Origin: Eledone cirrhosa
Lineage: Eukaryota
Assembly: GCA_964016885.1 (NCBI GenBank)
Contig: OZ024756.1
Location: 62,001-126,000 of the forward strand
DNA length: 64,000 nucleotides
Direction of reading: 5' to 3'
The position numbers and the translations under genes were made by a program. The notes under the pieces were generated by a model, which searched no databases, was not told the origin of the DNA, and saw only the letters and a program-made list of their open reading frames with translations. This document shows, one piece after another, positions 435-61,035 of the stretch (positions are counted from its first letter, which is position 1; each line of letters starts with the position of its first letter).

Positions 435-830
435 AGGAAATAGTTTCACTGTATTTGCTATCTTCTGTCTATAAAATCACATCACCTCTTCTCTTCATTT
501 CAAAATTGAAGTATGGTGCAGTGTAGTGTGGTGTGCTGGTGATGTGGGGTTGTGGTGTGGTGGTGCTGTGGTGTGATGGTGTAGTGTGGTGTGGTGGTGA
601 TGTGGGGTTGTGGTGGTGATGTGGTCTTGTGGTGTTGTCATGGCCCTACACCAAATGAGGGAAACCAGCAATAGACCAGAATAACTGATTCTGATGACTG
701 GATTATGTCAGCAGAGACAACATAGAATAGTTAGGTCTGAGACAACTGAAGACAACTGAAGCATGGCAGAATTTAAAGTACATGGCTAAATAGTTGTCAT
801 ACAATCCAAACTGCTGGCACAACAAATAAA

Positions 831-3800
831 TGGTCCAGTAACACCTGATATAGTGACAGGGGTGTTGTATTGACAGTGTATAGTCTAGTAATATCTGATA
901 TAGCCACAGGGGTGTTGTATTGACGGTGTATGGTCTAGTAACACCTGATATAACCACAGGAGTGTTGTATTGACAGTGTATGGTCTAGTAACACCTGATA
1001 TAGCCACAGGAGTGTTGTATTGACAGTGTATAGTCTAGTAATATCTGATATAGCCACAGGAGTGTTGTATTGACAGTGTATGGTCTAGTAACATCTGATA
1101 TAGCCACAGGGGTGTTGTATTGACGGTGTATGGTCTAGTAACACCTGATATAACCACAGGAGTGTTGTATTGACAGTGTATGGTCTAGTAACACCTGATA
1201 TAGCCACAGGAGTGTTGTATTGACGGTGTATGGTCTAGTAACACCTGATATAGCCACAGGAGTGTTGTATTGACAGTGTATGGTCTAGTAACATCTGATA
1301 TAGCCACAGGAGTGTTGTATTGACAGTGTATAGTCTAGTAACACCTGATATAGCCACAGGAGTGTTGTATTGACAGTGTATGGTCTAGTAACACCTGATA
1401 TAGCCACAGGAGTGTTGTATTGACAGTGTATGGTCCAGTAACACCTGATATAGCCACAGGAGTGTTGTATTGACAGTGTATAGTCTAGTAACACCTGATA
1501 TAGCCACAGGAGTGTTGTATTGACAGTGTATGGTCTAGTAACACCTGATATAGCCACAGGAGTGTTGTATTGACAGTGTATGGTCTAGTAACACCTGATA
1601 TAGCCACAGGAGTGTTGTATTGACAGTGTATGGTCCAGTAACACCTGATATAGCCACAGGAGTGTTGTATTGACAGTGTATAGTCTAGTAACACCTGATA
1701 TAGCCACAGGAGTGTTGTATTGACAGTGTATGGTCTAGTAACAACTGATATAGCCACAGGAGTGTTGTATTGACAGTGTATGGTCCAGTAACACCTGATA
1801 TAGCCACAGGAGTGTTGTATTGACAGTGTATAGTCTAGTAACACCTGATATAGCCACAGGAGTGTTGTATTGACAGTGTATGGTCTAGTAACACCTGATA
1901 TAGCCACAGGAGTGTTGTATTGACAGTGTATGGTCCAGTAACACCTGATATAGCCAGAGGAGTGTTGTATTGACAGTGTATGGTCCAGTAACACCTGATA
2001 TAGCCACAGGAGTGTTGTATTGACGGTGTATGGTCTAGTAACACCTGATATAGCCACAGGAGTGTTGTATTGACAGTGTATGGTCCAGTAACATCTGATA
2101 TAGCCACAGGAGTGTTGTATTGACAGTGTATGGTCTAGTAATATCTGATATAGCCACAGGGGTGTTGTATTGACAGTGTATGGTCCAGTAACACCTGATA
2201 TAGCCACAGGAGTGTTGTATTGACAGTGTATGGTCTAGTAACATCTGATATAGCCACAGGGGTGTTGTATTGACAGTGTATGGTCTAGTAACATCTGATA
2301 TAGCCACATGAGTGTTGTACTGACAGTGTATGGTCTAGTAACACCTGATATAGCCACATGAGTGTTGTATTGACGGTGTATGGTCTAGTAACACCTGATA
2401 TAGCCACAGGAGTGTTGTATTGACAGTGTATGGTCCAGTAACACCTGATATAGCCACAGGAGTGTTGTATTGACAGTGTATAGTCCAGTAACATCTGAGA
2501 TAGCCACAGAGGTGTTGTACTGACAGTGTATGGTCCAGTAACACCTGATATAGCCACAGGAGTGTTGTATTGACAGTGTATGATCCAGTAACACCTGATA
2601 TGGCCACAGGAGTGTTGTATTGACAGTGTATGGTCTAGTAACATCTGATATAGCCACAGGAGTGTTGTATTGACAGTGTATGGTCTAGTAACATCTGAGA
2701 TAGCCACAGAGGTGTTGTACTGACAGTGTATGGTCCAGTAACACCTGATATAGCCACAGGAGTGTTGTATTGACAGTGTATGATCCAGTAACACCTGATA
2801 TGGCCACAGGAGTGTTGTATTGACAGTGTATGGTCTAGTAACATCTGATATAGCCACAGGAGTGTTGTATTGACAGTGTATGGTCTAGTAACATCTGAGA
2901 TAGCCACAGAGGTGTTGTACTGACAGTGTATGGTCCAGTAACACCTGATATAGCCACAGGAGTGTTGTATTGACAGTGTATGATCCAGTAACACCTGATA
3001 TGGCCACAAGAGTGTTGTATTGACAGTGTATGGTCTAGTAACATCTGATATAGCCACAGGAGTGTTGTATTGACAGTGTATGGTCTAGTAACATCTGAGA
3101 TAGCCACAGAGGTGTTGTACTGACAGTGTATGGTCTAGTAACATCTGATATAGCAACAGGAGTGTTGTATTGACAGTGTATGGTCTAGTAACATCTGATA
3201 TAGCCACAGGAGTGTTGTATTGACAGTGTATGGTCCAGTAACACCTGATATAGCCACAGGAGTGTTGTATTGACAGTGTATGGTCCAGTAACATCTGAGA
3301 TAGCCACAGAGGTGTTGTACTGACAGTGTATGGTCCAGTAACATCTGATATAGCCACAGAGGTGTTGTACTGACAGTGTATGGTCTAGTAACATCTGATA
3401 TAGCCACAGGAGTGTTGTACTGACAGTGTATGGTCCAGTAACACCTGATATAGCCACATGAGTGTTGTATTGACAGTGTATGGTCTAGTAACACCTGATA
3501 TAGCCACATGAGTGTTGTATTGACAGTGTATGGTCTAGTAACATCTGATATAGCCACAGAGGTGTTGTACTGACAGTGTATGGTCCAGTAACACCTGATA
3601 TAGCCACAGGAGTGTTGTATTGACAGTGTATGGTCCAGTAACATCTGAGATAGCCACAGAGGTGTTGTACTGACAGTGTATGGTCCAGTAACATCTGATA
3701 TAGCCACAGGAGTGTTGTATTGACAGTGTATGGTCCAGTAACACCTGATATAGCCACAGGAGTGTTGTATTGACAGTGTATGGTCCAGTAACATCTGATA

Positions 3801-6800
3801 TAGCCACAGAGGTGTTGTACTGACAGTGTATGGTCCAGTAACATCTGATATAGCCACAGGAGTGTTGTATTGACAGTGTATGGTCCAGTAACACCTGATA
3901 TAGCCACAGGAGTGTTGTATTGACAGTGTATGGTCCAGTAACATCTGATATAGCCACAGGAGTGTTGTATTGACAGTGTATGGTCTAGTAACACCTGATA
4001 TAGCCACATGAGTGTTGTATTGACAGTGTATGGTCTAGTAACATCTGATATAGCCACATGAGTGTTGTATTGACAGTGTATGGTCTAGTAACACCTGATA
4101 TAGCCACAGGAGTGTTGTATTGACAGTGTATGGTCCAGTAACACCTGATATAGCCACAGGAGTGTTGTATTGACAGTGTATGGTCTAGTAACACCTGATA
4201 TAACCACATGAGTGTTGTATTGACAGTGTATGGTCTAGTAACATCTGATATAGCCACATGAGTGTTGTATTGACAGTGTATGGTCTAGTAACATCTGATA
4301 TAGCCACAGGAGTGTTGTATTGACAGTGTATGGTCTAGTAACATCTGATATAGCCACATGAGTGTTGTATTGACAGTGTATGGTCTAGTAACATCTGATA
4401 TAGCCACAGGAGTGTTGTATTGACAGTGTATGGTCTAGTAACATCTGATATAGCCACAGGAGTGTTGTATTGACAGTGTATGGTCTAGTAACATCTGATA
4501 TAGCCACAGGAGTGTTGTATTGACAGTGTATGGTCTAGTAACACCTGATATAGCCACAGGAGTGTTGTATTGACAGTGTATGGTCTAGTAACACCTGATA
4601 TAGCCACAGGGGTGTTGTATTGACAGTGTATGGTCTAGTAACACCTGATATAGCCACATGAGTGTTGTATTGACAGTGTATGGTCTAGTAACACCTGATA
4701 TAGCCACAGGAGTGTTGTATTGACAGTGTATGGTCCAGTAACACCTGATATAGCCACAGGAGTGTTGTATTGACAGTGTATAGTCTAGTAACACCTGATA
4801 TAGCCACAGGAGTGTTGTATTGACAGTGTATGGTCTAGTAACACCTGATATAGCCACAGGAGTGTTGTATTGACAGTGTATGGTCTAGTAACACCTGATA
4901 TAGCCACAGGAGTGTTGTATTGACAGTGTATGGTCCAGTAACACCTGATATAGCCACAGGAGTGTTGTATTGACAGTGTATAGTCTAGTAACACCTGATA
5001 TAGCCACAGGAGTGTTGTATTGACAGTGTATGGTCTAGTAACACCTGATATAGCCACAGGAGTGTTGTATTGACAGTGTATGGTCCAGTAACACCTGATA
5101 TAGCCACAGGAGTGTTGTATTGACAGTGTATAGTCTAGTAACACCTGATATAGCCACAGGAGTGTTGTATTGACAGTGTATGGTCTAGTAACACCTGATA
5201 TAGCCACAGGAGTGTTGTATTGACAGTGTATGGTCCAGTAACACCTGATATAGCCAGAGGAGTGTTGTATTGACAGTGTATGGTCCAGTAACACCTGATA
5301 TAGCCACAGGAGTGTTGTATTGACGGTGTATGGTCTAGTAACACCTGATATAGCCACAGGAGTGTTGTATTGACAGTGTATGGTCCAGTAACATCTGATA
5401 TAGCCACAGGAGTGTTGTATTGACAGTGTATGGTCTAGTAATATCTGATATAGCCACAGGGGTGTTGTATTGACAGTGTATGGTCCAGTAACACCTGATA
5501 TAGCCACAGGAGTGTTGTATTGACAGTGTATGGTCTAGTAACATCTGATATAGCCACAGGGGTGTTGTATTGACAGTGTATGGTCTAGTAACATCTGATA
5601 TAGCCACATGAGTGTTGTACTGACAGTGTATGGTCTAGTAACACCTGATATAGCCACATGAGTGTTGTATTGACGGTGTATGGTCTAGTAACACCTGATA
5701 TAGCCACAGGAGTGTTGTATTGACAGTGTATGGTCCAGTAACACCTGATATAGCCACAGGAGTGTTGTATTGACAGTGTATAGTCCAGTAACATCTGAGA
5801 TAGCCACAGAGGTGTTGTACTGACAGTGTATGGTCCAGTAACACCTGATATAGCCACAGGAGTGTTGTATTGACAGTGTATGATCCAGTAACACCTGATA
5901 TGGCCACAGGAGTGTTGTATTGACAGTGTATGGTCTAGTAACATCTGATATAGCCACAGGAGTGTTGTATTGACAGTGTATGGTCTAGTAACATCTGAGA
6001 TAGCCACAGAGGTGTTGTACTGACAGTGTATGGTCCAGTAACACCTGATATAGCCACAGGAGTGTTGTATTGACAGTGTATGATCCAGTAACACCTGATA
6101 TGGCCACAGGAGTGTTGTATTGACAGTGTATGGTCTAGTAACATCTGATATAGCCACAGGAGTGTTGTATTGACAGTGTATGGTCTAGTAACATCTGAGA
6201 TAGCCACAGAGGTGTTGTACTGACAGTGTATGGTCCAGTAACACCTGATATAGCCACAGGAGTGTTGTATTGACAGTGTATGATCCAGTAACACCTGATA
6301 TGGCCACAGGAGTGTTGTATTGACAGTGTATGGTCTAGTAACATCTGATATAGCCACAGGAGTGTTGTATTGACAGTGTATGGTCTAGTAACATCTGAGA
6401 TAGCCACAGAGGTGTTGTACTGACAGTGTATGGTCTAGTAACATCTGATATAGCAACAGGAGTGTTGTATTGACAGTGTATGGTCTAGTAACATCTGATA
6501 TAGCCACAGGAGTGTTGTATTGACAGTGTATGGTCCAGTAACACCTGATATAGCCACAGGAGTGTTGTATTGACAGTGTATGGTCCAGTAACATCTGAGA
6601 TAGCCACAGAGGTGTTGTACTGACAGTGTATGGTCCAGTAACATCTGATATAGCCACAGAGGTGTTGTACTGACAGTGTATGGTCTAGTAACATCTGATA
6701 TAGCCACAGGAGTGTTGTACTGACAGTGTATGGTCCAGTAACACCTGATATAGCCACATGAGTGTTGTATTGACAGTGTATGGTCTAGTAACACCTGATA

Positions 6801-9800
6801 TAGCCACATGAGTGTTGTATTGACAGTGTATGGTCTAGTAACATCTGATATAGCCACAGAGGTGTTGTACTGACAGTGTATGGTCCAGTAACACCTGATA
6901 TAGCCACAGGAGTGTTGTATTGACAGTGTATGGTCCAGTAACATCTGAGATAGCCACAGAGGTGTTGTACTGACAGTGTATGGTCCAGTAACATCTGATA
7001 TAGCCACAGGAGTGTTGTATTGACAGTGTATGGTCCAGTAACACCTGATATAGCCACAGGAGTGTTGTATTGACAGTGTATGGTCCAGTAACATCTGATA
7101 TAGCCACAGAGGTGTTGTACTGACAGTGTATGGTCCAGTAACATCTGATATAGCCACAGGAGTGTTGTATTGACAGTGTATGGTCTAGTAACACCTGATA
7201 TAGCCACAGGGGTGTTGTATTGACAGTGTATGGTCTAGTAACATCTGATATAGCCAGAGGAGTGTTGTATTGACAGTGTATGGTCTAGTAACATCTGATA
7301 TAGCCACAGGAGTGTTGTATTGACAGTGTATGGTCCAGTAACACCTGATATAGCCACAGGAGTGTTGTATTGACAGTGTATGGTCCAGTAACATCTGATA
7401 TAGCCACAGGAGTGTTGTATTGACAGTGTATGGTCTAGTAACACCTGATATAGCCACATGAGTGTTGTATTGACAGTGTATGGTCTAGTAACATCTGATA
7501 TAGCCACATGAGTGTTGTATTGACAGTGTATGGTCTAGTAACACCTGATATAGCCACATGAGTGTTGTATTGACGGTGTATGGTCCAGTAACACCTGATA
7601 TAGCCACAGGAGTGTTGTATTGACAGTGTATGGTCCAGTAACACCTGATATAGCCACAGGAGTGTTGTATTGACAGTGTATGGTCTAGTAACACCTGATA
7701 TAACCACATGAGTGTTGTATTGACAGTGTATGGTCTAGTAACATCTGATATAGCCACATGAGTGTTGTATTGACAGTGTATGGTCTAGTAACATCTGATA
7801 TAGCCACAGGAGTGTTGTATTGACAGTGTATGGTCTAGTAACACCTGATATAGCCACAGGGGTGTTGTATTGACAGTGTATGGTCTAGTAACACCTGATA
7901 TAGCCACATGAGTGTTGTATTGACAGTGTATGGTCTAGTAACATCTGATATAGCCACAGGGGTGTTGTATTGACAGTGTATGGTCCAGTAACACCTGATA
8001 TAGCCACATGAGTGTTGTATTGACAGTGTATGGTCTAGTAACATCTGATATAGCCACAGGAGTGTTGTATTGACAGTGTATGGTCTAGTAACATCTGATA
8101 TAGCCACATGAGTGTTGTATTGACAGTGTATGGTCTAGTAACATCTGATATAGCCACAGGAGTGTTGTATTGACAGTGTATGGTCCAGTAACACCTGATA
8201 TAGCCACAGGAGTGTTGTATTGACAGTGTATAGTCCAGTAACATCTGAGATAGCCACAGAGGTGTTGTACTGACAGTGTATGGTCCAGTAACACCTGATA
8301 TAGCCACAGGAGTGTTGTATTGACAGTGTATGATCCAGTAACACCTGATATGGCCACAGGAGTGTTGTATTGACAGTGTATGGTCTAGTAACATCTGATA
8401 TAGCCACAGGAGTGTTGTATTGACAGTGTATGGTCTAGTAACATCTGAGATAGCCACAGAGGTGTTGTACTGACAGTGTATGGTCCAGTAACACCTGATA
8501 TAGCCACAGGAGTGTTGTATTGACAGTGTATGATCCAGTAACACCTGATATGGCCACAGGAGTGTTGTATTGACAGTGTATGGTCTAGTAACATCTGATA
8601 TAGCCACAGGAGTGTTGTATTGACAGTGTATGGTCTAGTAACATCTGAGATAGCCACAGAGGTGTTGTACTGACAGTGTATGGTCCAGTAACACCTGATA
8701 TAGCCACAGGAGTGTTGTATTGACAGTGTATGATCCAGTAACACCTGATATGGCCACAGGAGTGTTGTATTGACAGTGTATGGTCTAGTAACATCTGATA
8801 TAGCCACAGGAGTGTTGTATTGACAGTGTATGGTCTAGTAACATCTGAGATAGCCACAGAGGTGTTGTACTGACAGTGTATGGTCTAGTAACATCTGATA
8901 TAGCAACAGGAGTGTTGTATTGACAGTGTATGGTCTAGTAACATCTGATATAGCCACAGGAGTGTTGTATTGACAGTGTATGGTCCAGTAACACCTGATA
9001 TAGCCACAGGAGTGTTGTATTGACAGTGTATGGTCCAGTAACATCTGAGATAGCCACAGAGGTGTTGTACTGACAGTGTATGGTCCAGTAACATCTGATA
9101 TAGCCACAGAGGTGTTGTACTGACAGTGTATGGTCTAGTAACATCTGATATAGCCACAGGAGTGTTGTACTGACAGTGTATGGTCCAGTAACACCTGATA
9201 TAGCCACATGAGTGTTGTATTGACAGTGTATGGTCTAGTAACACCTGATATAGCCACATGAGTGTTGTATTGACAGTGTATGGTCTAGTAACATCTGATA
9301 TAGCCACAGAGGTGTTGTACTGACAGTGTATGGTCCAGTAACACCTGATATAGCCACAGGAGTGTTGTATTGACAGTGTATGGTCCAGTAACATCTGAGA
9401 TAGCCACAGAGGTGTTGTACTGACAGTGTATGGTCCAGTAACATCTGATATAGCCACAGGAGTGTTGTATTGACAGTGTATGGTCCAGTAACACCTGATA
9501 TAGCCACAGGAGTGTTGTATTGACAGTGTATGGTCCAGTAACATCTGATATAGCCACAGAGGTGTTGTACTGACAGTGTATGGTCCAGTAACATCTGATA
9601 TAGCCACAGGAGTGTTGTATTGACAGTGTATGGTCTAGTAACACCTGATATAGCCACAGGGGTGTTGTATTGACAGTGTATGGTCTAGTAACATCTGATA
9701 TAGCCAGAGGAGTGTTGTATTGACAGTGTATGGTCTAGTAACATCTGATATAGCCACAGGAGTGTTGTATTGACAGTGTATGGTCCAGTAACACCTGATA

Positions 9801-11475
9801 TAGCCACAGGAGTGTTGTATTGACAGTGTATGGTCCAGTAACATCTGATATAGCCACAGGAGTGTTGTATTGACAGTGTATGGTCTAGTAACACCTGATA
9901 TAGCCACATGAGTGTTGTATTGACAGTGTATGGTCTAGTAACATCTGATATAGCCACATGAGTGTTGTATTGACAGTGTATGGTCTAGTAACACCTGATA
10001 TAGCCACATGAGTGTTGTATTGACGGTGTATGGTCCAGTAACACCTGATATAGCCACAGGAGTGTTGTATTGACAGTGTATGGTCCAGTAACACCTGATA
10101 TAGCCACAGGAGTGTTGTATTGACAGTGTATGGTCTAGTAACACCTGATATAACCACATGAGTGTTGTATTGACAGTGTATGGTCTAGTAACATCTGATA
10201 TAGCCACATGAGTGTTGTATTGACAGTGTATGGTCTAGTAACATCTGATATAGCCACAGGAGTGTTGTATTGACAGTGTATGGTCTAGTAACACCTGATA
10301 TAGCCACAGGGGTGTTGTATTGACAGTGTATGGTCTAGTAACACCTGATATAGCCACATGAGTGTTGTATTGACAGTGTATGGTCTAGTAACATCTGATA
10401 TAGCCACAGGGGTGTTGTATTGACAGTGTATGGTCCAGTAACACCTGATATAGCCACATGAGTGTTGTATTGACAGTGTATGGTCTAGTAACATCTGATA
10501 TAGCCACAGGAGTGTTGTATTGACAGTGTATGGTCTAGTAACATCTGATATAGCCACATGAGTGTTGTATTGACAGTGTATGGTCTAGTAACATCTGATA
10601 TAGCCACAGGAGTGTTGTATTGACAGTGTATGGTCTAGTAACATCTGATATAGCCACAGGAGTGTTGTATTGACAGTGTATGGTCTAGTAACACCTGATA
10701 TAGCCACAGGGGTGTTGTATTGACAGTGTATGGTCTAGTAACACCTGATATAGCCACATGAGTGTTGTATTGACAGTGTATGGTCTAGTAACATCTGATA
10801 TAGCCACAGGGGTGTTGTATTGACAGTGTATGGTCCAGTAACACCTGATATAGCCACATGAGTGTTGTATTGACAGTGTATGGTCTAGTAACATCTGATA
10901 TAGCCACAGGAGTGTTGTATTGACAGTGTATGGTCTAGTAACACCTGATATAGCCACATGAGTGTTGTATTGACAGTGTATGGTCTAGTAACATCTGATA
11001 TAGCCACAGGAGTGTTGTATTGACAGTGTATGGTCTAGTAACATCTGATATAGCCACAGGAGTGTTGTATTGACAGTGTATGGTCCAGTAACACCTGATA
11101 TAACCACAGGAGTGTTGTATTGACAGTGTATGGTCTAGTAACATCTGATATAGCCACAGGAGTGTTGTATTGACAGTGTATGGTCTAGTAACATCTGATA
11201 TAGCCAGAGGAGTGTTGTATTGACAGTGTATGGTCTAGTAACATCTGATATAGCCACAGGAGTGTTGTATTGACAGTGTATGGTCTAGTAACATCTGATA
11301 TAGCCACAGGAGTGTTGTATTGACAGTGTATGGTCTAGTAACACCTGATATAGCCACATGAGTGTTGTATTGACAGTGTATGGTCTAGTAACATCTGATA
11401 TAGTCACAGGAGTGTTGTATTGACAGTGTATGGTCTAGTAACACCTGATATAGCCACAGGGGTGTTGCATTGACA
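831..11475. repeat. 50-bp tandem satellite, about 213 copies, with higher-order repeats
   Basis: Unit TGGTCYAGTAACAYCTGATATAGCCACAGGAGTGTTGTATTGACAGTGTA keeps register from 831 to 11431 with no net indel. Variant blocks recur at offsets of 200, 400, 2450 and 3300 bp. Confidence 0.99.
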
Positions 11476-11689: not shown

Positions 11690-14600
11690 ATGATGTGTTG
11701 TGGTAATGTGATGTGGTGTTGTGTGGCAATGTGGTGTGGTGTTGCGTGGTAATATGATGTGGTGTTGTGTGGTAATGTGATGTGGTGTTGTGGTGATGTA
11801 GTGTTGTGTGGTAATGTGATGTGGTGTTGTGTGGTAATGTGATGTGGTGTTGTGTGGTAATGTGATGTGGTGTTGTGTGGTAATGTGGTGTGGTGTTGTG
11901 TGGTAATGTGATGTTGTGTGGTAATGTGATGTGGTGTTGCGTGGTAATGTGATGTGGTGTTGTGGTAATGTGGTGTGGTGTTGCGTGGTAATGTGATGTG
12001 GTGTTGTGTGGAAATGTGATGTGGTGTTGTGTGGTAATGTGATGTAGTGTTGTGTGGTAATGTGATGTAGTGTTGTGTGGTAATATGGTGTGGTGTTGCG
12101 TGGTAATGTGATGTGGTGTTGCGTGGTAATGTGATGTGGTGTTGTGTGGTAATGTGATGTGGTGTTGTGGTAACGTAATGTGGTGTTGTGTAGTAATGTA
12201 ATGTGGTGTTGCGTGGTAATGTGATGTGGTGTTGTGTGGTAATGTGATGTGGTGTTGTGTGGTAATGTGATGTGGTGTTGTGTGGTAATGTGATGTGGTG
12301 TTGTGGTAACGTAATGTGGTGTTGTGTAGTAATGTAATGTGGTGTTGCGTGGTAATGTGATGTGGTGTTGTGTGGTAATGTGATGTGGTGTTGTGTGGTA
12401 ATGTGATGTGGTGTTGTGTGGTAATGTGATGTGGTGTTGTGGTAACGTAATGTGGTGTTGTGTAGTAATGTAATGTGGTGTTGCGTGGTAATGTGATGTG
12501 GTGTTGTGTGGTAATGTGATGTGGTGTTGTGGTAGTGTAGTGTAGTAATGTAATGTGGTGTTGCGTGGTAATGTGATGTGGTGTTGTGTGGTAATATGAT
12601 GTGGTGTTGTGGTAACGTAATGTGGTGTTGTGTAGTAATGTAATGTGGTGTTGTGTGGTAATGTGATGTGGTGTTGTGGTAACGTAATGTGGTGTTGTGT
12701 AGTAATGTAATGTGGTGTTGTGTAGTAATGTAATGTGGTGTTGTGTGGTAATGTGATGTGGTGTTGTGGTAACGTAATGTGGTGTTGTGTAGTAATGTAA
12801 TGTGGTGTTGTGTAGTATTGTAATGTGGTGTTGTGGTAATGTGATGTGGTGTGGTAATGTGATGTGGTGTTGCGTGGTAATGTGATGTGGTGTTGTGTGG
12901 TAATGTGATATGGTGTTGTGTGCTAATGTGATGTGGTGTTGTGGTAACGTAATGTGGTGTTGTGTAGTAATGTAGTGTGGTGTTGCGTAATAATGTGGTG
13001 TGGTGTTGTGGTAACGTGATGTGGTGTTATGTGGTAATGTGATGTGGTGGTGTGTGGTAATGTGATGTGGTGGTGTGTGGTAATGTGGTGTTGTGGTAAT
13101 GTGATGTGGTGTTGCGTGGTAATGTGATGTTGTGTTGTGTGGTAATGTGATGCGGTGTTGCGTGGTAATGTGATGTGGTGTTGTGTGGTAATGTGATATG
13201 GTGTTGTGTGCTAATGTGATGTGGTGTTGTGGTAACGTAATGTGGTGTTGTGTAGTAATGTAGTGTGGTGTTGCGTAATAATGTGGTGTGGTGTTGTGGT
13301 AACGTGATGTGGTGTTATGTGGTAATGTGATGTGGTGGTGTGTGGTAATGTGATGTGGTGGTGTGTGGTAATGTGGTGTTGTGGTAATGTGATGTGGTGT
13401 TGCGTGGTAATGTGATGTTGTGTTGTGTGGTAATGTGATGCGGTGTTGTGTGGTAATGTGATGTGGTGTTATGTGTAATGTGATGTGGTAATGTGATGTG
13501 GTGTGGTAATGTGGTGTTGTGGTAATGTGATGCAGTGTTGTGTGGTAATGTGATGGTGTTATGTGGTAATGTGATGCGGTGTTGTGGTAATGTGATGTGT
13601 TGTGTGGTAATGTGGTAATGTGATGCGGTGTTGTGTGGTAATGTGGTGTGGTGGTGTGTGGTAATGTGGTGTTGTGCGGTTATGTGATGTGGTGTTGTGT
13701 GGTAATGTGGTGTGGTGTTGCGTGGTAATGTGATGTGGTGTTGTGTGGTAATGTGGTGTGGTGTTATGTGGTAATGTGATGTTGTGTGGTTATGTGATGT
13801 GGTCTTGTGTGGTTATGTGATGTGGTCTTGTGTGGTTATGTGATGTGGTGTTGTGTGGTAATGTGATGTGGTGTTGTGTGGTAATGTGATGTGGTGTTGT
13901 GGTAATGTGATGTGGTGTTGTGGTAATGTAATGTGGTGTGGTAATGTGGTGTGGTCTTGTGTGGTAATGTGATGTGGTGTTGTGGTAATGTGATGTGGTG
14001 TTGTGTGGTAATGTGGTGTGGTGTTGTGTGGTAGTGTGATGTGGTGTTGTGTGGTAATGTGATGTGGTGTTGTGTGGTAATGTGATGTGGTGTTGTGGTA
14101 ATGTGATGTGGTGTTGTGTGGTAATGTGATGTGGTGTTGTGTGGTCATGTGATGTGGTGTTGTGGTAATGTGATGTGGTGTTGTGTGGTAATGTGATGTG
14201 GTGTTGTGTGGTTATGTGATGTGGTGTTGTGTGGTAATGTGGTGTGGTGTTATGTGGTAATGTGATGTGGTGTTGTGGTAATGTGATGTGGTGTGGTAAT
14301 GTGATGTGGAGTTCTGTGGTAATGTGATGTGGAGTTGTTTGGTCATGTGATGTGGTGTTGTGGTAATGTGATGTGGTGTTGTGGTAATGTGATGTGGTGT
14401 TGTGTGGTAATGTGATGTGGTGTTGTGTGGTTATGTGATGTGGTGTTGTGTGGTTATGTGATGTGGTGTTGTGTGGTAATGTGGTGTGGTGTTATGTGGT
14501 AATGTGGTGTGGTGTTGTAAGGTAATGTGATGTGGTGTTGTGTGGTATTGTGATGTGGTGTTGTGTGGTAATGTGATGTGGTGTTGTGTGGTAATGTGAT

Positions 14601-14792
14601 GTGGTGTTGTGTGGTAATGCGGTGTGGTGTTGTGTGGTAATGTGATGTGGTGTTGTGGTAATGTGATGTGGTGTTGTGTGGTAATGTGATGTGGTGTTGT
14701 GTGGTAATGTGATGTTGTGTTGTGTGGTAATGTGATGTGGTGTTGTGTGGTAATTTGATATTGTGTTGTGTGGTAATGTCATGTGGTGTTGT
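11690..14792. repeat. GT-rich 21/23-bp minisatellite
   Basis: Unit GTGGTAATGTGATGTGGTGTTGT repeated with variants for about 3.1 kb. Confidence 0.97.
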
Positions 14793-14819
14793 GAGACAAA
14801 CTCGCAGTAAGTAATAATA

Positions 14820-16004: not shown

Positions 16005-16455
16005 TATATATTAACAAATGGAAACTATATTTATTTCATTATACATATTTCAAGGGCCACCAGAGCAAACTATGGTGCGCTTTCATCAAATAAAATATAA
16101 TATAGGTTAGTTTTATAAATAAATATTGGCATACCCTTAAAAAATGCAACCATTCTGGTTGGAATCTCCTGGATAGTGGATTCCAGGAGATTCCAACCAG
16201 AATGGTTGCATTTTTTAAGGGTATGCCAATATTTATTTATAAAACTAACCTATATTATATTTTATCTGATGAAAGCGCACCATAGTTTGCTCTGGTGGCC
16301 CTTGAAATATGTATAATGAAATAAATATGGTTTTATAAATATAGTTTCCATTTGTTAATATATTGTATTTTTACTCCAATAATTTGTTGAGTGCTTTATA
16401 TCAGTTATAAAAATATTTGCTTGTTGTATCCCAACAAATTAAATATAACTTCTAC
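16005..16455 (+). mobile_element. Hammerhead-bearing palindrome (arms about 170-180 bp, 8-nt spacer) plus about 90-bp tail; Penelope-like pLTR remnant
   Basis: Arms 16005-16173 and 16182-16362 are reverse complements. Outer arms and tail are homologous to 45070-45506. Confidence 0.8.
16258..16323 (+). ncRNA. Minimal type-I hammerhead ribozyme motif
   Basis: Stem I TATTTTAT/ATGAAATA; core CTGATGA (16266-72); stem II AAGCGCACCATAG..CTCTGGTGGCCCTT; GAAA (16304-07); short stem III A-TATGTA-T; predicted cleavage after A16315; AATAAA at 16320. Confidence 0.75.
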
Positions 16456-23068: not shown

Positions 23069-23116
23069 ATTAAATGTTTCTTGCTAATTTTATACTCACA
23101 AACCAAACATTAAACA

Positions 23117-23176
<60 letters not shown>

Positions 23177-23224
23177 TGTTTAATGTTTGGTTTGTGAGTA
23201 TAAAATTAGCAAGAAACATTTAAT
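23069..23224. repeat. Inverted repeat (about 50-bp arms) flanking (TA)n
   Basis: ATTAAATGTTTCTTGCTAATTTTATACTCACAAACCAAACATTAAACACCAA-(TA)n-reverse complement. Confidence 0.9.
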
Positions 23225-23653: not shown

Positions 23654-23972
23654 TCATCATTTCACTTTACGTCCGCTTTTCCCTGCTTGCAAGGGTGGGA
23701 TGGTAACTGATTCTGGCTTGATTTCTACAGCTGGATGCCCTTCCTAACACCAACCTCATTTACAGTGAGTGCTGGGTGCTTTTTTTTGCCGCGGCACCTC
23801 CACGACCATTTTGCAGTGGAATGATAGGGACCCTAGTCCCTATCATCTCATTTCTACAGCTGAATAAACTGGAGCAATGTGAAATAAAGTGTCTTGCTCA
23901 AGGAAACAACACATCACGCGGTCTGAGAATTGAACTCACAACCTTTCGATTGCAAGGCCAATGCTCTAACCA
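23654..23972 (-). mobile_element. tRNA-derived CORE-like SINE, family S2, slightly 5'-truncated
   Basis: Reverse complement of 24001-24329. Confidence 0.9.
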
Positions 23973-23983
23973 TATATATATAT

Positions 23984-24329
23984 GGAGGCACATGGCTTAG
24001 TGGTTAGAGCATTGGCCTTGCAATCGAAAGGTTGTGAGTTCAATTCTCAGACCGGGTGATGTGTTGTTTCCTTGAGCAAGACACTTTATTTCACATTGCT
24101 TCAGTTTACTCAGCTGTAGAAATGAGATGATAGCACTGGGGTCCCTATCATTCCACTGCAAAGTGGTCGTGTAGGTGCCACGGCAAAAAAACACCCAGCA
24201 CTCACTGTAAATGAGGTTGGTGTTAGGAAGGGCATCCAGCTGTAGAAATCAAGCCAGAATCAGTTCCCGTCCCACCCTTGCAAGCAGGGAAAAGCGGACG
24301 TAAAATGATGATGATGATGATGATGATGA
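23984..24329 (+). mobile_element. Full-length tRNA-derived CORE-like SINE S2 with RTE-derived 3' tail
   Basis: A-box TGGCTTAGTGG (23993), B-box GAGTTCAATTC (24036), CORE-like CCTTGAGCAAGACACTT, tail GGTGTTAGGAAGGGCATCCAGCTGTAGAAA...CGGACGTAAAA(TGA)n shared with RTE 19133-19395. Confidence 0.92.
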
Positions 24330-31505: not shown

Positions 31506-34000
31506 GTACTGCGTACACTATACACTGTACTGAGTACACTATACACTGTACTGCGTACATTATACACTGTGCTGTGTACACTATACACTGTACTGCGTAC
31601 ATTATACACTGTGCTGTGTACACTATACACTGTACTGCGTACACTATACACTGTGCTGTGTACACTATACACAGTACTGCGTACATTATACACTGTGCTG
31701 TGTACACTATACACTGTACTGCGTACACTATACACTGTGCTGTGTACACTATACACAGTACTGTGTACACTATACACTGTACTGCGTACATTATACACTG
31801 TGCTGTGTACACTATACACTGTACTGCGTACATTATACACTGTGCTGTGTACACTATACACTGTACTGCGTACATTATACACTGTGCTGTGTACACTATA
31901 CACTGTACTGCGTACACTATACACTGTGCTGTGTACACTATACACAGTACTGTGTACACTATACACTGTACTGCGTACATTATACACTGTACTGCGTACA
32001 TTATACACTGTGCTGTGTACACTATACTGCGCACATTATACACTGTGCTGTGTACACTGTACTGCGTACATTATACACTGTGCTGTGTACACTATACTGC
32101 GTACATTATACACTGTGCTGTGTACACTATACTGCGCACATTATACACTGTGCTGTGTACACTGTACTGCGTACATTATACACTGTGCTGTGTACATTAT
32201 ACACTGTGCTGTGTACACTATACTGCGTACATTATACACTGTACTGCGTACATTATACACTGTGCTGTGTACACTATACTGCGTACATTATACACTGTGC
32301 TGTGTACACTGTACTGCGCACATTATACACTGTGCTGTGTACACTATACTGCGTACATTATACACTGTGCTGTGTACACTATACTGCGCACATTATACAC
32401 TGTGCTGTGTACACTGTACTGCGTACATTATACACTGTGCTGTGTACATTATACACTGTGCTGTGTACACTGTACTGCGTACATTATACACTGTGCTGTG
32501 TACACTATACTGCGCACATTATACACTGTGCTGTGTACACTGTACTGCGCACATTATACACTGTGCTGTGTACACTGTACTGCGCACATTATACACTGTG
32601 CTGTGTACACTATACTGCGCACATTATACACTGTGCTGTGTACACTGTACTGCGTACATTATACACTGTGCTGTGTACATTATACACTGTGCTGTGTACA
32701 CTGTACTGCGTACATTATACACTGTGCTGTGTACACTATACTGCGCACATTATACACTGTGCTGTGTACACTGTACTGCGCACATTATACACTGTGCTGT
32801 GTACACTATACTGCGCACATTATACACTGTGCTGTGTACACTGTACTGCGTACATTATACACTGTGCTGTGTACATTATACACTGTGCTGTGTACACTAT
32901 ACTGCGTACATTATACACTGTACTGCGTACATTATACACTGTACTGCGTACATTATACACTATACACTGTACTGCGTACACTATACACTGTACTGTGTAC
33001 ATTATACACTGTACTGTGTACACTATACACTGTACTGAGTACACTATACACAGTACTGTGTATACTATACACTGTACTGAGTACACTATACACAGTACTG
33101 TGTACACTATACACAGTACTGTGTATACTATACACTGTACTGAGTACACTATACACAGTACTGTGTACACTATACACAGTACTGTGTATACTATACACTG
33201 TACTGAGTACACTATACACAGTACTGTGTACACTATACACAGTACTGTGTATACTATACACTGTACTGAGTACACTATACACAGTACTGTGTACACTATA
33301 CACTGTACTGCGTACACTATACACTGTACTGCGTACACTATACACTATACTGCGTACATTATACACTGTGCTGTGTACACTATACACAGTACTGTGTATA
33401 CTATACACTGTACTGAGTACACTATACACAGTACTGTGTACACTATACACAGTACTGTGTATACTATACACTGTACTGAGTACACTATACACAGTACTGT
33501 GTACACTATACACTATACTGCGTACATTATACACTGTGCTGTGTACACTATACACTGTACTGTGTACACTATACACAGTACTGTGTACACTATACACAGT
33601 ACTGTGTATACTATACACTGTACTGAGTACACTATACACAGTACTGTGTACACTATACACTGTACTGCGTACACTATGCACTGTACTGAGTACACTATAC
33701 ACAGTACTGTGTATACTATACACTGTACTGAGTACACTATACACAGTACTGTGTACACTATACACAGTACTGTGTACACTATACACTGTACTGCGTACAC
33801 TATACACTATACTGCGTACATTATACACTGTGCTGTGTACACTATACACTGTACTGTGTACACTATACACAGTACTGTGTACACTATACACAGTACTGTG
33901 TACACTATACACAGTACTGTGTATACTATACACTGTACTGAGTACACTATACACAGTACTGTGTACACTATACACTGTACTGCGTACACTATGCACTACG
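31506..34000. repeat. 7-bp-based (14/21/35-bp) satellite rich in GTAC palindromes
   Basis: ACTGTAC-TGCGTAC-ACTATAC subunits and variants over about 2.5 kb. Confidence 0.96.
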
Positions 34001-39171: not shown

Positions 39172-39544
39172 CTAGCAAAGTTTAGACATATAATTAACCT
39201 CCTATTCCACAGAACAATCGTAAAGATACGTAGGTAGTTAGTGTTGTCATCAACAGTGTCATATTTAAAGAGTGGAGGTGATGTGGTCAGTATCAGTGGA
39301 TGCAACAAAGATTATAAAAGAATAATACAATTATAGAGGAATTAAAGAAAAAAGTTACTTGTTTTGCAAGTAACTTTCTTCTTTAATTGTTGTATTATTC
39401 TTTTATAATCTTTGTTGCATCCACTGATACTGACCACATCATCTCCACTCTTTAAATATGACACTGTTGATGACAACACTAACACCTACGTATCTTTACG
39501 ATTGTTCTGTGGAATAGGTTAATTATATGTCTAAACTTTGCAAG

Positions 39545-39699: not shown

Positions 39700-40071
39700 T
39701 ATAAACGTTTGTATATGTATAATAAAGCCAAAACAATGCAGGTATGGACATAGAATAAAGAATGCAAATGCAAAAGATATTGTTGACAATTAGTATTTTA
39801 CGTTAGATTTATTTAAATGTCCTTAATTTCCGAGATAATATCTCTTCTTCGGAGGGAAGTAAAGCGGTTAAACCAGTGTTCTAAATAGCTATTTAGAACA
39901 CTGGTTTAACCGCTTTACTTCCCTCCGAAGAAGAGATATTATCTCGGAAATTAAGGACATTTAAATAAATCTAACGTAAAATACTAATTGTCAACAATAT
40001 CTTTTGCATTTGCATTCTTTATTCTATGTCCATACCTGCATTGTTTTGGCTTTATTATACATATACAAACG

Positions 40072-45069: not shown

Positions 45070-45501
45070 ATCAAAGTAGAAGGGATATTTAATTTGTTGG
45101 AAATTCAACAAATATAAATGTTTATAACTGATTCAGAGCACTCGACAGATTTCTGGAGTAAATATTCAATGATATTAAATAAATGGAAACTATATTTATA
45201 AAACCATATTTATTCTATTATATATATTTCAAGGGTACCAAAAACTTTGGTACGCTTTCATCAGATAAAATACAAAGTGTGTTTTATAAATTTTGACATA
45301 GCCAAGGAAATCATACCTTATCAGTTGAATTTTCCTTGGATAGGAAAATTCAACTGATAAGGTATGATTTCCTTGGCTATGTCAAAATTTATAAAACACA
45401 CTTTGTATTTCATCTGATGAAACCAAAGTTTTTGGTACCCTTGAAATATATATAATAGAATAAATATGGTTTTATAAATATAGTTTCCATTTATTTAATA
45501 T

Positions 45502-45506
<5 letters not shown>
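45070..45506 (-). mobile_element. Hammerhead-bearing palindrome (arms about 165-170 bp, 5-nt spacer) plus about 95-bp tail
   Basis: Arms 45167-45336 and 45342-45506; homologous to 16005-16455 in outer arms and tail. Confidence 0.82.
45211..45272 (-). ncRNA. Minimal type-I hammerhead ribozyme motif
   Basis: TATTTTAT-CTGATGA-AAGCGTACCAAA-GTT-TTTGGTACCCTT-GAAA-TATATA-TA-ATAGAATA: palindromic stem III (ATATATAT), 8-bp stem I. Confidence 0.78.
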
Positions 45507-45545
<39 letters not shown>

Positions 45546-54714: not shown

Positions 54715-54960
54715 ACTTCATTTCTTTGGCACAGAAGGTAACTCAATACTGTGTGTGCATGATAACTAAATGTATGTGTGTGTGTATGTGTGTTAGTAAA
54801 AAACATTGCAGAGAATAACAACAGTTTAGTAGTAAAATGCTTAAAAGAAGTTAGAAAAGTGTTAGTCTTTCATTTTTGTTTCAAGAGCTAGTCCTTCATC
54901 AGAAGGCAGACAGAGAGAAGAAAGATGACAAATGAGGTGAAAAGGTACACAGAGGAAAAA
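54715..54960 (-). mobile_element. Probable Penelope-like pLTR remnant with degenerate hammerhead
   Basis: Minus strand GCCTT-CTGATGA-AGGACTAGCTCTT-GAAA (54879-54907); downstream GTATTGAGTTAC motif near 54745. Confidence 0.45.
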
Positions 54961-59311: not shown

Positions 59312-61035
59312 ATTTGTTGTTGGAGGTCTCTTTCAATACTCAGCCTCAACATTTGTTGGTGGAGGTCTCTTTCAATACTCAGCCTCAACATTTGTTGGTG
59401 TTGGTGGAGGTCTCTTTTAATACTCAGCCTCAACATTTGTTGTTGTTGGTGGAGGTCTCTTTTAATACTCAGCCTCAACATTTGTTGGTGTTGGTGGAGG
59501 TCTCTTTTAATACTCAGCCTCAACATTTGTTGTTGTTGTTGGAGGTCTCTTTCAATACTCAGCCTCAACATTTGTTGGTGTTGTTGGAGGTCTCTTTCAA
59601 TACTCAGCCTCAACATTTGTTGGTGTTGTTGGAGGTCTCTTTCAATACTCAGCCGCAACATTTGTTGGTGTTGTTGGAGGTCTCTTTCAATACTCAGCCT
59701 CAACATTTGTTGGTGTTGTTGGAGGTCTCTTTCAATACTCAGCCTCAACATTTGTTGGTGTTGTTGGAGGTCTCTTTCAATACTCAGCCTCAACATTTGT
59801 TGGTGTTGTTGGAGGTCTCTTTCAATACTCAGCCTCAACATTTGTTGGTGTTGGTGGAGGTCTCTTTTAATACTCAGCCTCAACATTTGTTGGTGTTGGT
59901 GGAGGTTTCTTTTAATACTCAGCCTCAACATTTGTTGGTGTTGTTGGAGGTCTCTTTTAATACTCAGCCTCAACATTTGTTGGTGTTGGTGGAGGTTTCT
60001 TTTAATACTCAGCCTCAACATTTGTTGGTGTTGTTGGAGGTCTCTTTCAATACTCAGCCTCAACATTTGTTGTTGTTGGTGGAGGTCTCTTTTAATACTC
60101 AGCCTCAACATTTGTTGTTGGTGGAGGTCTCTTTTAATACTCAGCCTCAACATTTGTTGGTGTTGTTGGAGGTCTCTTTCAATACTCAGCCTCAACATTT
60201 GTTGTTGTTGGAGGTCTCTTTCAATACTCAGCCTCAACATTTGTTGTTGTTGGAGGTCTCTTTTAATACTCAGCCTCAACATTTGTTGGTGTTGGTGGAG
60301 GTTTCTTTTAATACTCAGCCTCAACATTTGTTGGTGTTGGTGGAGGTCTCTTTTAATACTCAGCCTCAACATTTGTTGTTGTTGGAGGTCTCTTTTAATA
60401 CTCAGCCTCAACATTTGTTGGTGTTGGTGGAGGTTTCTTTTAATACTCAGCCTCAACATTTGTTGGTGTTGGTGGAGGTCTCTTTTAATACTCAGCCTCA
60501 ACATTTGTTGGTGTTGGTGGAGGTTTCTTTTAATACTCAGCCTCAACATTTGTTGGTGTTGTTGGAGGTCTCTTTCAATACTCAGCCTCAACATTTGTTG
60601 TTGTTGGAGGTCTCTTTCAATACTCAGCCTCAACATTTGTTGTTGTTGGTGGAGGTCTCTTTTAATACTCAGCCTCAATATTTGTTGTTGGTGGAGGTCT
60701 CTTTTAATACTCAGCCTCAACATTTGTTGGTGTTGTTGGAGGTCTCTTTCAATACTCAGCCTCAACATTTGTTGTTGTTGGAGGTCTCTTTCAATACTCA
60801 GCCTCAACATTTGTTGTTGTTGTTGGAGGTCTCTTTCAATACTCAGCCTCAACATTTGTTGTTGGTGGAGGTCTCTTTTAATACTCAGCCTCAACATTTG
60901 TTGGTGTTGGTGGAGGTCTCTTTCAATACTCAGCCTCAACATTTGTTGGTGTTGGTGGAGGTCTCTTTTAATACTCAGCCTCAACATTTGTTGGTGTTGG
61001 TGGAGGTCTCTTTTAATACTCAGCCTCAACATTTG
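59312..61035. repeat. About 45-bp minisatellite with 3-bp length variants
   Basis: TACTCAGCCTCAACATTTGTTGGTGTTGTTGGAGGTCTCTTTCAA; variable number of GTT/GGT triplets. Confidence 0.97.

What the first reader, a model, noticed from the sequence alone, without database searches (positions are those of the whole stretch)
16258..16323. Structure conserved despite sequence change between the 16.3k and 45.2k hammerheads
Seen: both have stem I 5' strand TATTTTAT, paired with ATGAAATA (16k) or ATAGAATA (45k). Stem II differs (GCACCATAG/CTCTGGTGGC versus GTACCAAA/TTTGGTAC) yet both fold and keep the same basal AAG/CTT pairs and C-C mismatch. The inner parts of the arms have diverged much more. Stem III is (near-)palindromic, ATATATAT or ATATGTAT, as described for PLE minimal hammerheads that act as dimers. 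Inference: selection on ribozyme structure in the source elements.
Basis: partly seen in the sequence, partly recalled or inferred. Interest (0 to 1): 0.75.

Follow-up and report, generated by a model that had tools for sequence, protein, structure and literature searches.

The report
Hydra-clade Penelope hammerheads under selection
Both motifs are copies of a small, likely self-cutting RNA carried at the ends of a known kind of jumping gene; its fold stayed the same across the gene's subfamilies while silent sites in the gene changed almost completely, a real but already described feature of this class of element.

Summary
Observation confirmed. Both motifs are minimal type I hammerheads in the pseudo-LTRs of two subfamilies of one Hydra-clade Penelope-like retrotransposon (DKT, CxCX5C, CxxC/CxH, RWR for RWK, (TA)n targets; intact ~740-aa ORFs elsewhere in the genome). 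Each window copy is a short back-to-back inverted insertion with one damaged arm. The two copies alone show only one compensatory pair change in the ribozyme. Across 30 relatives stem II covaries (0/500 shuffles; at least four independent double changes on a flank-based tree), the C·C mismatch is invariant and N7 is the only freely varying core base, while 21 of 28 fourfold-degenerate ORF sites differ between the two subfamilies. Caveat: the 34 nt behind the ribozyme are equally conserved. Extra: arm 5' ends pile up 79-89 nt upstream of the core, hardly ever at the cut site, suggesting uncut RNA copied to its start. Known kind (Cervera & de la Peña 2014; Craig 2021); this scan already noted the same kind of motif on other DNA of this genome. 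Cleavage untested.

The parts
16258..16323 (+). Minimal type I hammerhead, 16k subfamily, intact (stem I, core, stem II with C·C mismatch, self-complementary helix III, predicted cut after A16315)
16181..16455 (+). Right arm of the 16k insertion: pLTR/leader fragment from about -85 to the long 3' end (about +190), followed by (TA)n-like flank
16008..16179 (-). Left (inverted) arm of the 16k insertion, short 3' end; damaged hammerhead 16032-16097 (C3>T, 14-nt deletion); begins at the conserved CACTATCC motif (16171-16178)
16320..16353 (+). 34-nt block 3' of the ribozyme, identical in both subfamilies; 37,404 exact copies in the genome; function not established
16373..16392 (+). Small hairpin just past the short 3' end; one further compensatory change against the 45k copy; a second similar hairpin follows the long end in full-length elements
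45211..45272 (-). Minimal type I hammerhead, 45k subfamily, intact
45076..45343 (-). Left arm of the 45k insertion, long 3' end, starting about 79 nt upstream of the core
45340..45510 (+). Right (inverted) arm of the 45k insertion, short 3' end into (TA)n; hammerhead with a 5-nt deletion in stem II
45140..45159 (-). 45k counterpart of the tail hairpin

Best explanation
Both motifs are minimal type I hammerheads in the terminal repeat of two subfamilies of a Hydra-clade Penelope-like retrotransposon, conserved by selection on the source elements, and they likely cut RNA only weakly and only when two copies swap their self-complementary helix III or the element's protein assists. Shown: identity of the element, covariation, saturation of silent sites, free decay of inserted copies, direct-repeat hammerhead pairs 3.5-4.3 kb apart flanking ORFs, two fixed 3' ends, 5' ends piled at -79 to -89. 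Inferred: transcription starts near the CACTATCC motif 88 nt upstream, so the ribozyme lies in the leader 237 nt before the ATG; in read-through RNA of a pLTR-ORF-pLTR copy the two hammerheads would pair and release a unit-length RNA; most templates stay uncut, and the reverse transcriptase, priming from both ends of a (TA)n break at the short and the long site, would copy through the intact ribozyme to the RNA 5' end, giving short back-to-back arms like the two in this window, which are dead products.
For: Intact ORFs with the motif 237-243 nt upstream and again downstream; Hydra motifs in P0079; look-alike clusters with GIY-YIG and RT families, feature score 0.96-0.98. Alignment of 30 relatives: 94% of cells paired, 44 cells with double change, 0/500 shuffles on three of five measures, all slid controls far lower; A-U/G·U/G-C series at three pairs; C·C in 30 of 30; six 5' core bases 100% conserved, N7 U22/A3/G3/C2. 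Flank-only tree: C-G to U-A twice, G-C/A-U once, A-U to G-C once (read by eye). 21 of 28 fourfold sites differ, 64% amino-acid identity. 49 hammerhead-descriptor hits in 999,800 random bases against 0, 2 and 1 in shuffles; 36 of 49 have a fully self-complementary helix III although this was not required. 31 of 35 inverted pairs have one long and one short end (p 2e-6). Exact copies of the 16k leader: 654 at -79, 221 at -88, 149 at -89, 98 at -102. 43 of 51 unbiased arms carry the whole ribozyme; at most 1-2 start near the cut site.
Against: No cleavage or expression data. Two of five covariation measures do not beat shuffles (279/500, 375/500), the structure was named by me from these sequences, and the shuffle ignores relatedness; four independent events is a small number. 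Stems I and III vary almost only by A/G opposite U, which any U-rich partner tolerates. The downstream 34 nt are as conserved as the core (0.985, though the set was ascertained on that block). Predicted stem I pairing in the long context is low (0.01-0.37). The closing pair of stem II is A-U or a mismatch, never G-C, in this clade. A chimeric copy (L231) shows that subfamilies recombine. In the anole element the hammerhead was dispensable for insertion in vitro and no reads began or ended at the cut site (PMC11167929).
Confidence: 0.8

Rival explanations
1. The fold is conserved as a binding or folding platform for the element's own RT-endonuclease (part of the signal for internal priming), and cleavage is vestigial or rare.
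For: The whole 200-nt leader is conserved, including the invariant block and tail hairpin; nearly all copies span the cut site intact; no G-C closing pair and an internal C·C mismatch weaken the fold; catalytic mutants did not affect insertion of the anole element (PMC11167929).
Against: Variation follows the catalytic rules exactly: only N7 is free, H17 is never G, and unrelated families in the genome keep the core while everything around it differs. That is hard to explain by binding alone.
Confidence: 0.15
2. The likeness of the two motifs comes from recent exchange of the leader between subfamilies (template switching or conversion), not from selection.
For: A chimeric copy with a 16k ribozyme and a 45k 3' end exists (L231); sharp loss of similarity upstream of -88.
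Against: Identity inside the shared region is uneven and follows the structure (variable loop II and internal loop, fixed core); compensatory changes occur on several branches; about 20 unrelated families keep the same architecture.
Confidence: 0.04
3. Chance hammerhead-like match in AT-rich inverted repeats or an assembly fold-back.
For: Very AT-rich sequence; 16k 66-mer folds no better than shuffles; no Rfam hammerhead model matches at E up to 10.
Against: Tens of thousands of copies, fixed place in full-length elements, arms that differ by mutations and have unequal ends, shuffled controls near zero.
Confidence: 0.01

Closest known systems
Minimal hammerheads of metazoan Penelope-like elements (Cervera & de la Peña 2014, PMC4209133; parts 1-2 of 4 read: results and discussion)
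   Same: [quoted passage not shown]
   Different: No G10.1-C11.1 pair and no single extra base after A9; an invariant C·C mismatch after three base pairs of stem II; stem I of 8 bp; roughly 1e5 motifs genome-wide by extrapolation against 4,000-9,000 in their richest genomes.
Hydra clade of C-terminal EN+ PLEs, including Hydra-1_Obim (Craig et al. 2021, PMC8557442; passages, section 11, supplement parts 2-3 and searches read)
   Same: DKT, CxCX5C linker, CxxC and CxH around E and N, short single ORF, (TA)n targets, hammerhead in the pLTR, inverted 5'-truncated copy, tail at one end; many published Hydra hammerheads also close stem II with U·U rather than G-C and have 3-4 bp helix III.
   Different: RWR in place of RWK; different hammerhead sequence from Hydra-1_Obim; long 3' UTR (1.2-1.5 kb) and unit of about 4 kb; tail about 90 nt instead of 30-40; no C·C-interrupted stem II among the Hydra rows of their File S2.
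Poseidon element of the green anole, PAc (Frangieh et al. 2024, PMC11167929; parts 1-2 of 4 read)
   Same: Two internal initiation sites bracketing the tail, AT-rich targets, both strands extended, uncut RNA as main template, hammerhead needing help.
   Different: Other clade; there the hammerhead overlaps the start codon and the initiation sites lie in the ORF, here all lie in the leader.
Penelope of Drosophila virilis (Schostak et al. 2008, PMC2377424; passages read)
   Same: Internal TATA-less promoter in the pLTR with the start site upstream of the hammerhead; partial tandem plus inverted repeats.
   Different: Start site and intron are mapped there; here the start site is only inferred from insertion ends and no intron is shown.
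Non-LTR retrozymes (PMC7229834, passages; preprint 10.64898/2026.07.22.740005, part 1 of 5)
   Same: Type I hammerheads, dimer use, PLE link.
   Different: These copies are not tandem arrays of a non-coding monomer; they are ends of an autonomous element.

Membership tests
Type I hammerhead, minimal PLE form | Core CUGANGA ... GAAA ... UH with free N7 and H not G | tested here: met
   core invariant in 30 of 30 (one G12 change in one copy), N7 takes all four bases, H17 = A
Type I hammerhead, minimal PLE form | Helices I and II with compensatory variation | tested here: met
   stem II covaries; stem I mostly one-sided changes plus one A-U to G-C
Type I hammerhead, minimal PLE form | Self-complementary helix III/loop 3 | tested here: met
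   ATATRTAT; 36 of 49 unselected hits self-complementary; dimer duplex -2.2 and -3.2 kcal/mol
Type I hammerhead, minimal PLE form | G10.1-C11.1 pair and one extra base after A9 (2014 consensus) | tested here: not met
   A-U 23, U·U 4, A·C 2, A·A 1 of 30; published Hydra hammerheads also often lack G-C
Type I hammerhead, minimal PLE form | Self-cleavage as dimer or with protein | not testable with these tools
   bench assay needed
Rfam hammerhead families | Match to a curated covariance model | tested here: not met
   no hammerhead model at E up to 10
Penelope-like element, EN+ | Single ORF with RT and C-terminal GIY-YIG, flanked by direct pLTRs | tested here: met
   Pfam-A copy gave no RT or GIY-YIG hit, so domain calls rest on motifs and the atlas
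Penelope-like element, EN+ | Inverted 5'-truncated copy and a tail at one end only | tested here: met
   35 of 58 loci inverted, 31 of 35 long/short
Hydra clade | DKT, RWK, CxCX5C, CxxC and CxH flanking E and N, (TA)n target | tested here: met
   DKT 122, RWR 39 (variant), CNCRNKSNC 602, CSLC 694, CKH 721; (TA)n flanks
Hydra clade | Placement inside the clade on an RT tree | not tested
   likeness to Hydra-1_Obim judged by eye from the supplement; no tree with reference sequences built
Neptune clade (first considered) | DKG motif and CX2-5CxxC linker | tested here: not met
Non-LTR retrozyme | Tandem non-coding monomers each with a hammerhead | tested here: not met
   no array at either locus; the sequence is the end of a coding element

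The most novel reading that the evidence does not exclude
The element keeps a deliberately weak ribozyme (dimer-only, C·C brake, no G-C closing pair) in its 5' leader as a self-limiting switch, and most of its tens of thousands of short insertions are complete run-off copies of the uncut 5' end of its own mRNA, primed from both DNA ends at two hairpin-marked sites. The genome would then record the transcription start, both priming sites and the rarity of cleavage for an uncharacterised clade, making the purpose of Penelope hammerheads directly testable.
Probability: 0.3. Interest if true: 0.6.

Novelty: new member of a known kind. Interest (0 to 1): 0.3.

Why it matters
What Penelope hammerheads do is still open (PMC8557442 says they may simply parasitise the elements; PMC11167929 found them dispensable in vitro). 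This family gives a clean quantitative case that the catalytic fold is under purifying selection in source elements whose silent sites are saturated, which argues against a mere passenger, and it offers intact templates and natural variants for a cleavage assay. The basic phenomenon, including covariation and opposite-strand pairs, has been in print since 2014, so the surprise is low.

Tried and rejected
Anti-ribozyme hairpin: RNAalifold paired the ribozyme's 3' half with the invariant block, but the duplex is no better than shuffled downstream sequence (z about 0 in this clade; 1 of 24 family representatives at p<0.05). Rejected as an AT-richness effect. Extended stem Ib: present in all six single folds but no double change; left open. 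Cap-derived G at the 5' junction: G precedes the motif in 25 of 72 non-C cases (p 0.009), but in the 12 G cases inspected it mostly comes from the opposite arm. Rejected. Leader intron: a GTATGT-like donor lies about 43 nt behind the putative start in most subfamilies, but the G is missing at that place in the 45k group and no acceptor is conserved. Unsupported. Neptune assignment replaced by Hydra. One search's within-family rates were inflated by two copies with secondary insertions; I recounted by eye without them. Pfam and PDB searches gave nothing useful. Rfam: no hammerhead among the 150 of 170 rows shown or locally. Sequencing runs: no RNA holder listed; contigs laid were uninformative on expression or splicing. 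Paper searches found no report on this family, on a C·C mismatch in PLE hammerheads or on 5' ends piling at a start site; subscription papers and unseen supplements (including those of PMC4209133) may hold such data.

Full report
Observation. The letters and coordinates are right. The core pattern has 8 matches in the window against 1.61 expected. Each locus is a back-to-back inverted pair with one intact and one damaged hammerhead. Between the two intact motifs the core is identical, stem II has one double change (C-G to U-A) plus indels, and stems I and III differ by A/G opposite U. On energy alone the case is weak: the 16k motif folds no better than shuffles and its isolated stem II prefers a different register.

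What the motifs belong to. The window lies in a 3.0-Gb animal genome; named homologues of the ORF come from Octopus, Argonauta and Hydra. Both motifs are young repeats: 40 of 49 listed matches are identical to the 16k query (779 candidates, 40 scored) and 33 of 52 to the 45k query (940 candidates). The 34-nt block behind the ribozyme has 37,404 exact copies, control 0. Walking upstream from long copies reached ORF remains for both subfamilies, and a protein search found intact frames of about 740 aa. In full-length copies the hammerhead sits 237-243 nt before the ATG and again after the 3' UTR, as direct repeats 3.5-4.3 kb apart in six loci checked. The protein has DKT, RWR, CxCX5C, CxxC and CxH, the marks of the Hydra clade (PMC8557442 section 11); Pfam gave no useful hit, while the atlas returned clusters with GIY-YIG and RT families.

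Test of the selection claim. I aligned 30 relatives chosen by hand from 165 distinct arms to span the stem II variants. For the hammerhead structure that I named, 94% of cells pair and 44 cells change on both sides, 0 of 500 shuffles on these measures and on the covariation score; the two measures that count pairs or types do not beat shuffles; slid controls pair at 38-56%. RNAalifold independently recovered the three best covarying stem II pairs. The C·C mismatch is present in 30 of 30, six 5' core bases are invariant and N7 takes all four bases. On a tree built only from flanking sequence of 57 arms, C-G to U-A occurs twice, G-C/A-U once and A-U to G-C once, with G·U states present (read by eye). 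As a neutral yardstick, ORF pieces linked to the two subfamilies are 64% identical in amino acids and differ at 21 of 28 fourfold-degenerate sites (second copy 8 of 13 and 11 of 12), and their 3' UTRs give no BLAST match. Among 24 copies picked only by their upstream motif, two carry secondary insertions; 5 of the other 22 have core mutations. So the fold is constrained in the lineage of source elements and unprotected after insertion. More widely, a descriptor that does not ask for a palindrome found 49 motifs in 999,800 random bases (100 stretches, 80 from the four largest chromosomes) against 0, 2 and 1 in shuffles, 36 of them with a self-complementary helix III; about 20 unrelated families share the design. 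That extrapolates to roughly 1e5 motifs.

Limits. Conservation covers the whole leader: the block behind the ribozyme is as invariant as the core (ascertained on that block) and a tail hairpin shows another compensatory change between the two subfamilies. The closing pair of stem II is never G-C, but that is common among published Hydra hammerheads. A proposed sequestering hairpin failed its shuffle control.

How the window copies arose. Of 58 loci, 35 are inverted pairs and 31 of those have one long and one short 3' end. The arms of a pair share private variants, pointing to one template. 5' ends cluster at -91 to -76 in 22 of 58 alignment ends for the 16k subfamily and at -87 to -63 in 31 of 51 for 45k (these lists include some fragments split at indels), at a CACTATCC motif conserved across the clade. 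Genome-wide exact counts fall from 654 at -79 to 149 at -89, then only to 98 at -102. Of 51 unbiased arms 43 carry the whole ribozyme and at most one or two start near the cut site. My inference is that transcription starts at this motif and that uncut leader RNA is copied from two internal priming sites to its end, in line with the two initiation sites and uncut template shown for the anole element (PMC11167929) and the internal promoter of Drosophila Penelope (PMC2377424). No RNA data confirm the start.

Mechanism, committed. The motif is a weak, dimer-dependent or protein-assisted self-cleaving ribozyme that processes read-through RNA of pLTR-ORF-pLTR source elements (0.8). Helix III cannot close as a monomer hairpin of useful stability and forms an 8-bp duplex as a dimer. 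The inverted arms in the window cannot serve as partners, since a transcript carries one of them antisense. Cleavage, dimer use and the start site are inferred.

Comparison and verdict. Minimal hammerheads in PLE repeats, their covariation, palindromic helix III and opposite-strand pairs were described in PMC4209133; Hydra-clade hammerheads, including one from an octopus, in PMC8557442. Earlier notes of this scan report the same kind of motif, the C·C mismatch, the twin hairpins and the unequal ends on other DNA of this genome. Interest 0.3.

Noticed in passing
window 54868-54902 (-): A further core match resembling a different short-stem hammerhead family seen at L041 and L066; looks decayed.
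   Followed up: partly
window 16335, 16338, 16341: In coded run X4 (kind not on record) A>G shows at about 16-31% of contig depth against about 1% or less in X1. It could be ADAR editing of the fold-back RNA or strain variation; cannot be told apart here.
   Followed up: partly
L231: Chimeric copy: 16k-type ribozyme joined to a 45k-type 3' end within or just behind the invariant block.
   Followed up: no
window 16219-16225 and relatives: Splice-donor-like GTATG about 43 nt behind the putative start, as in Drosophila Penelope (46 nt); not conserved at that place in the 45k group; no acceptor found.
   Followed up: partly
window 16237-16246 with 16330-16339: Conserved inverted motif that could extend stem I past an internal loop or be a paired protein site; no compensatory change seen.
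   Followed up: yes
window 45406-45422, L041, L210: The same T>C change just before the core recurs in independent copies and perfects a local palindrome; possible template-switch hotspot.
   Followed up: no
window 23090-23203, 23940-24033, 39332-39395, 39846-39931: Other short, near-perfect palindromes flagged only as weak miRNA-like Rfam matches; possibly fold-back insertions of other elements.
   Followed up: no
window 830-11475, 11695-14793, 31506-33997, 59315-61035: Large minisatellite arrays (50-, 23-, about 21- and 45-nt units) near the start of chromosome C17.
   Followed up: no
L182 6638-7753, L066: A hammerhead family in direct tandem units of about 530 nt, retrozyme-like, unrelated to this finding.
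   Followed up: no
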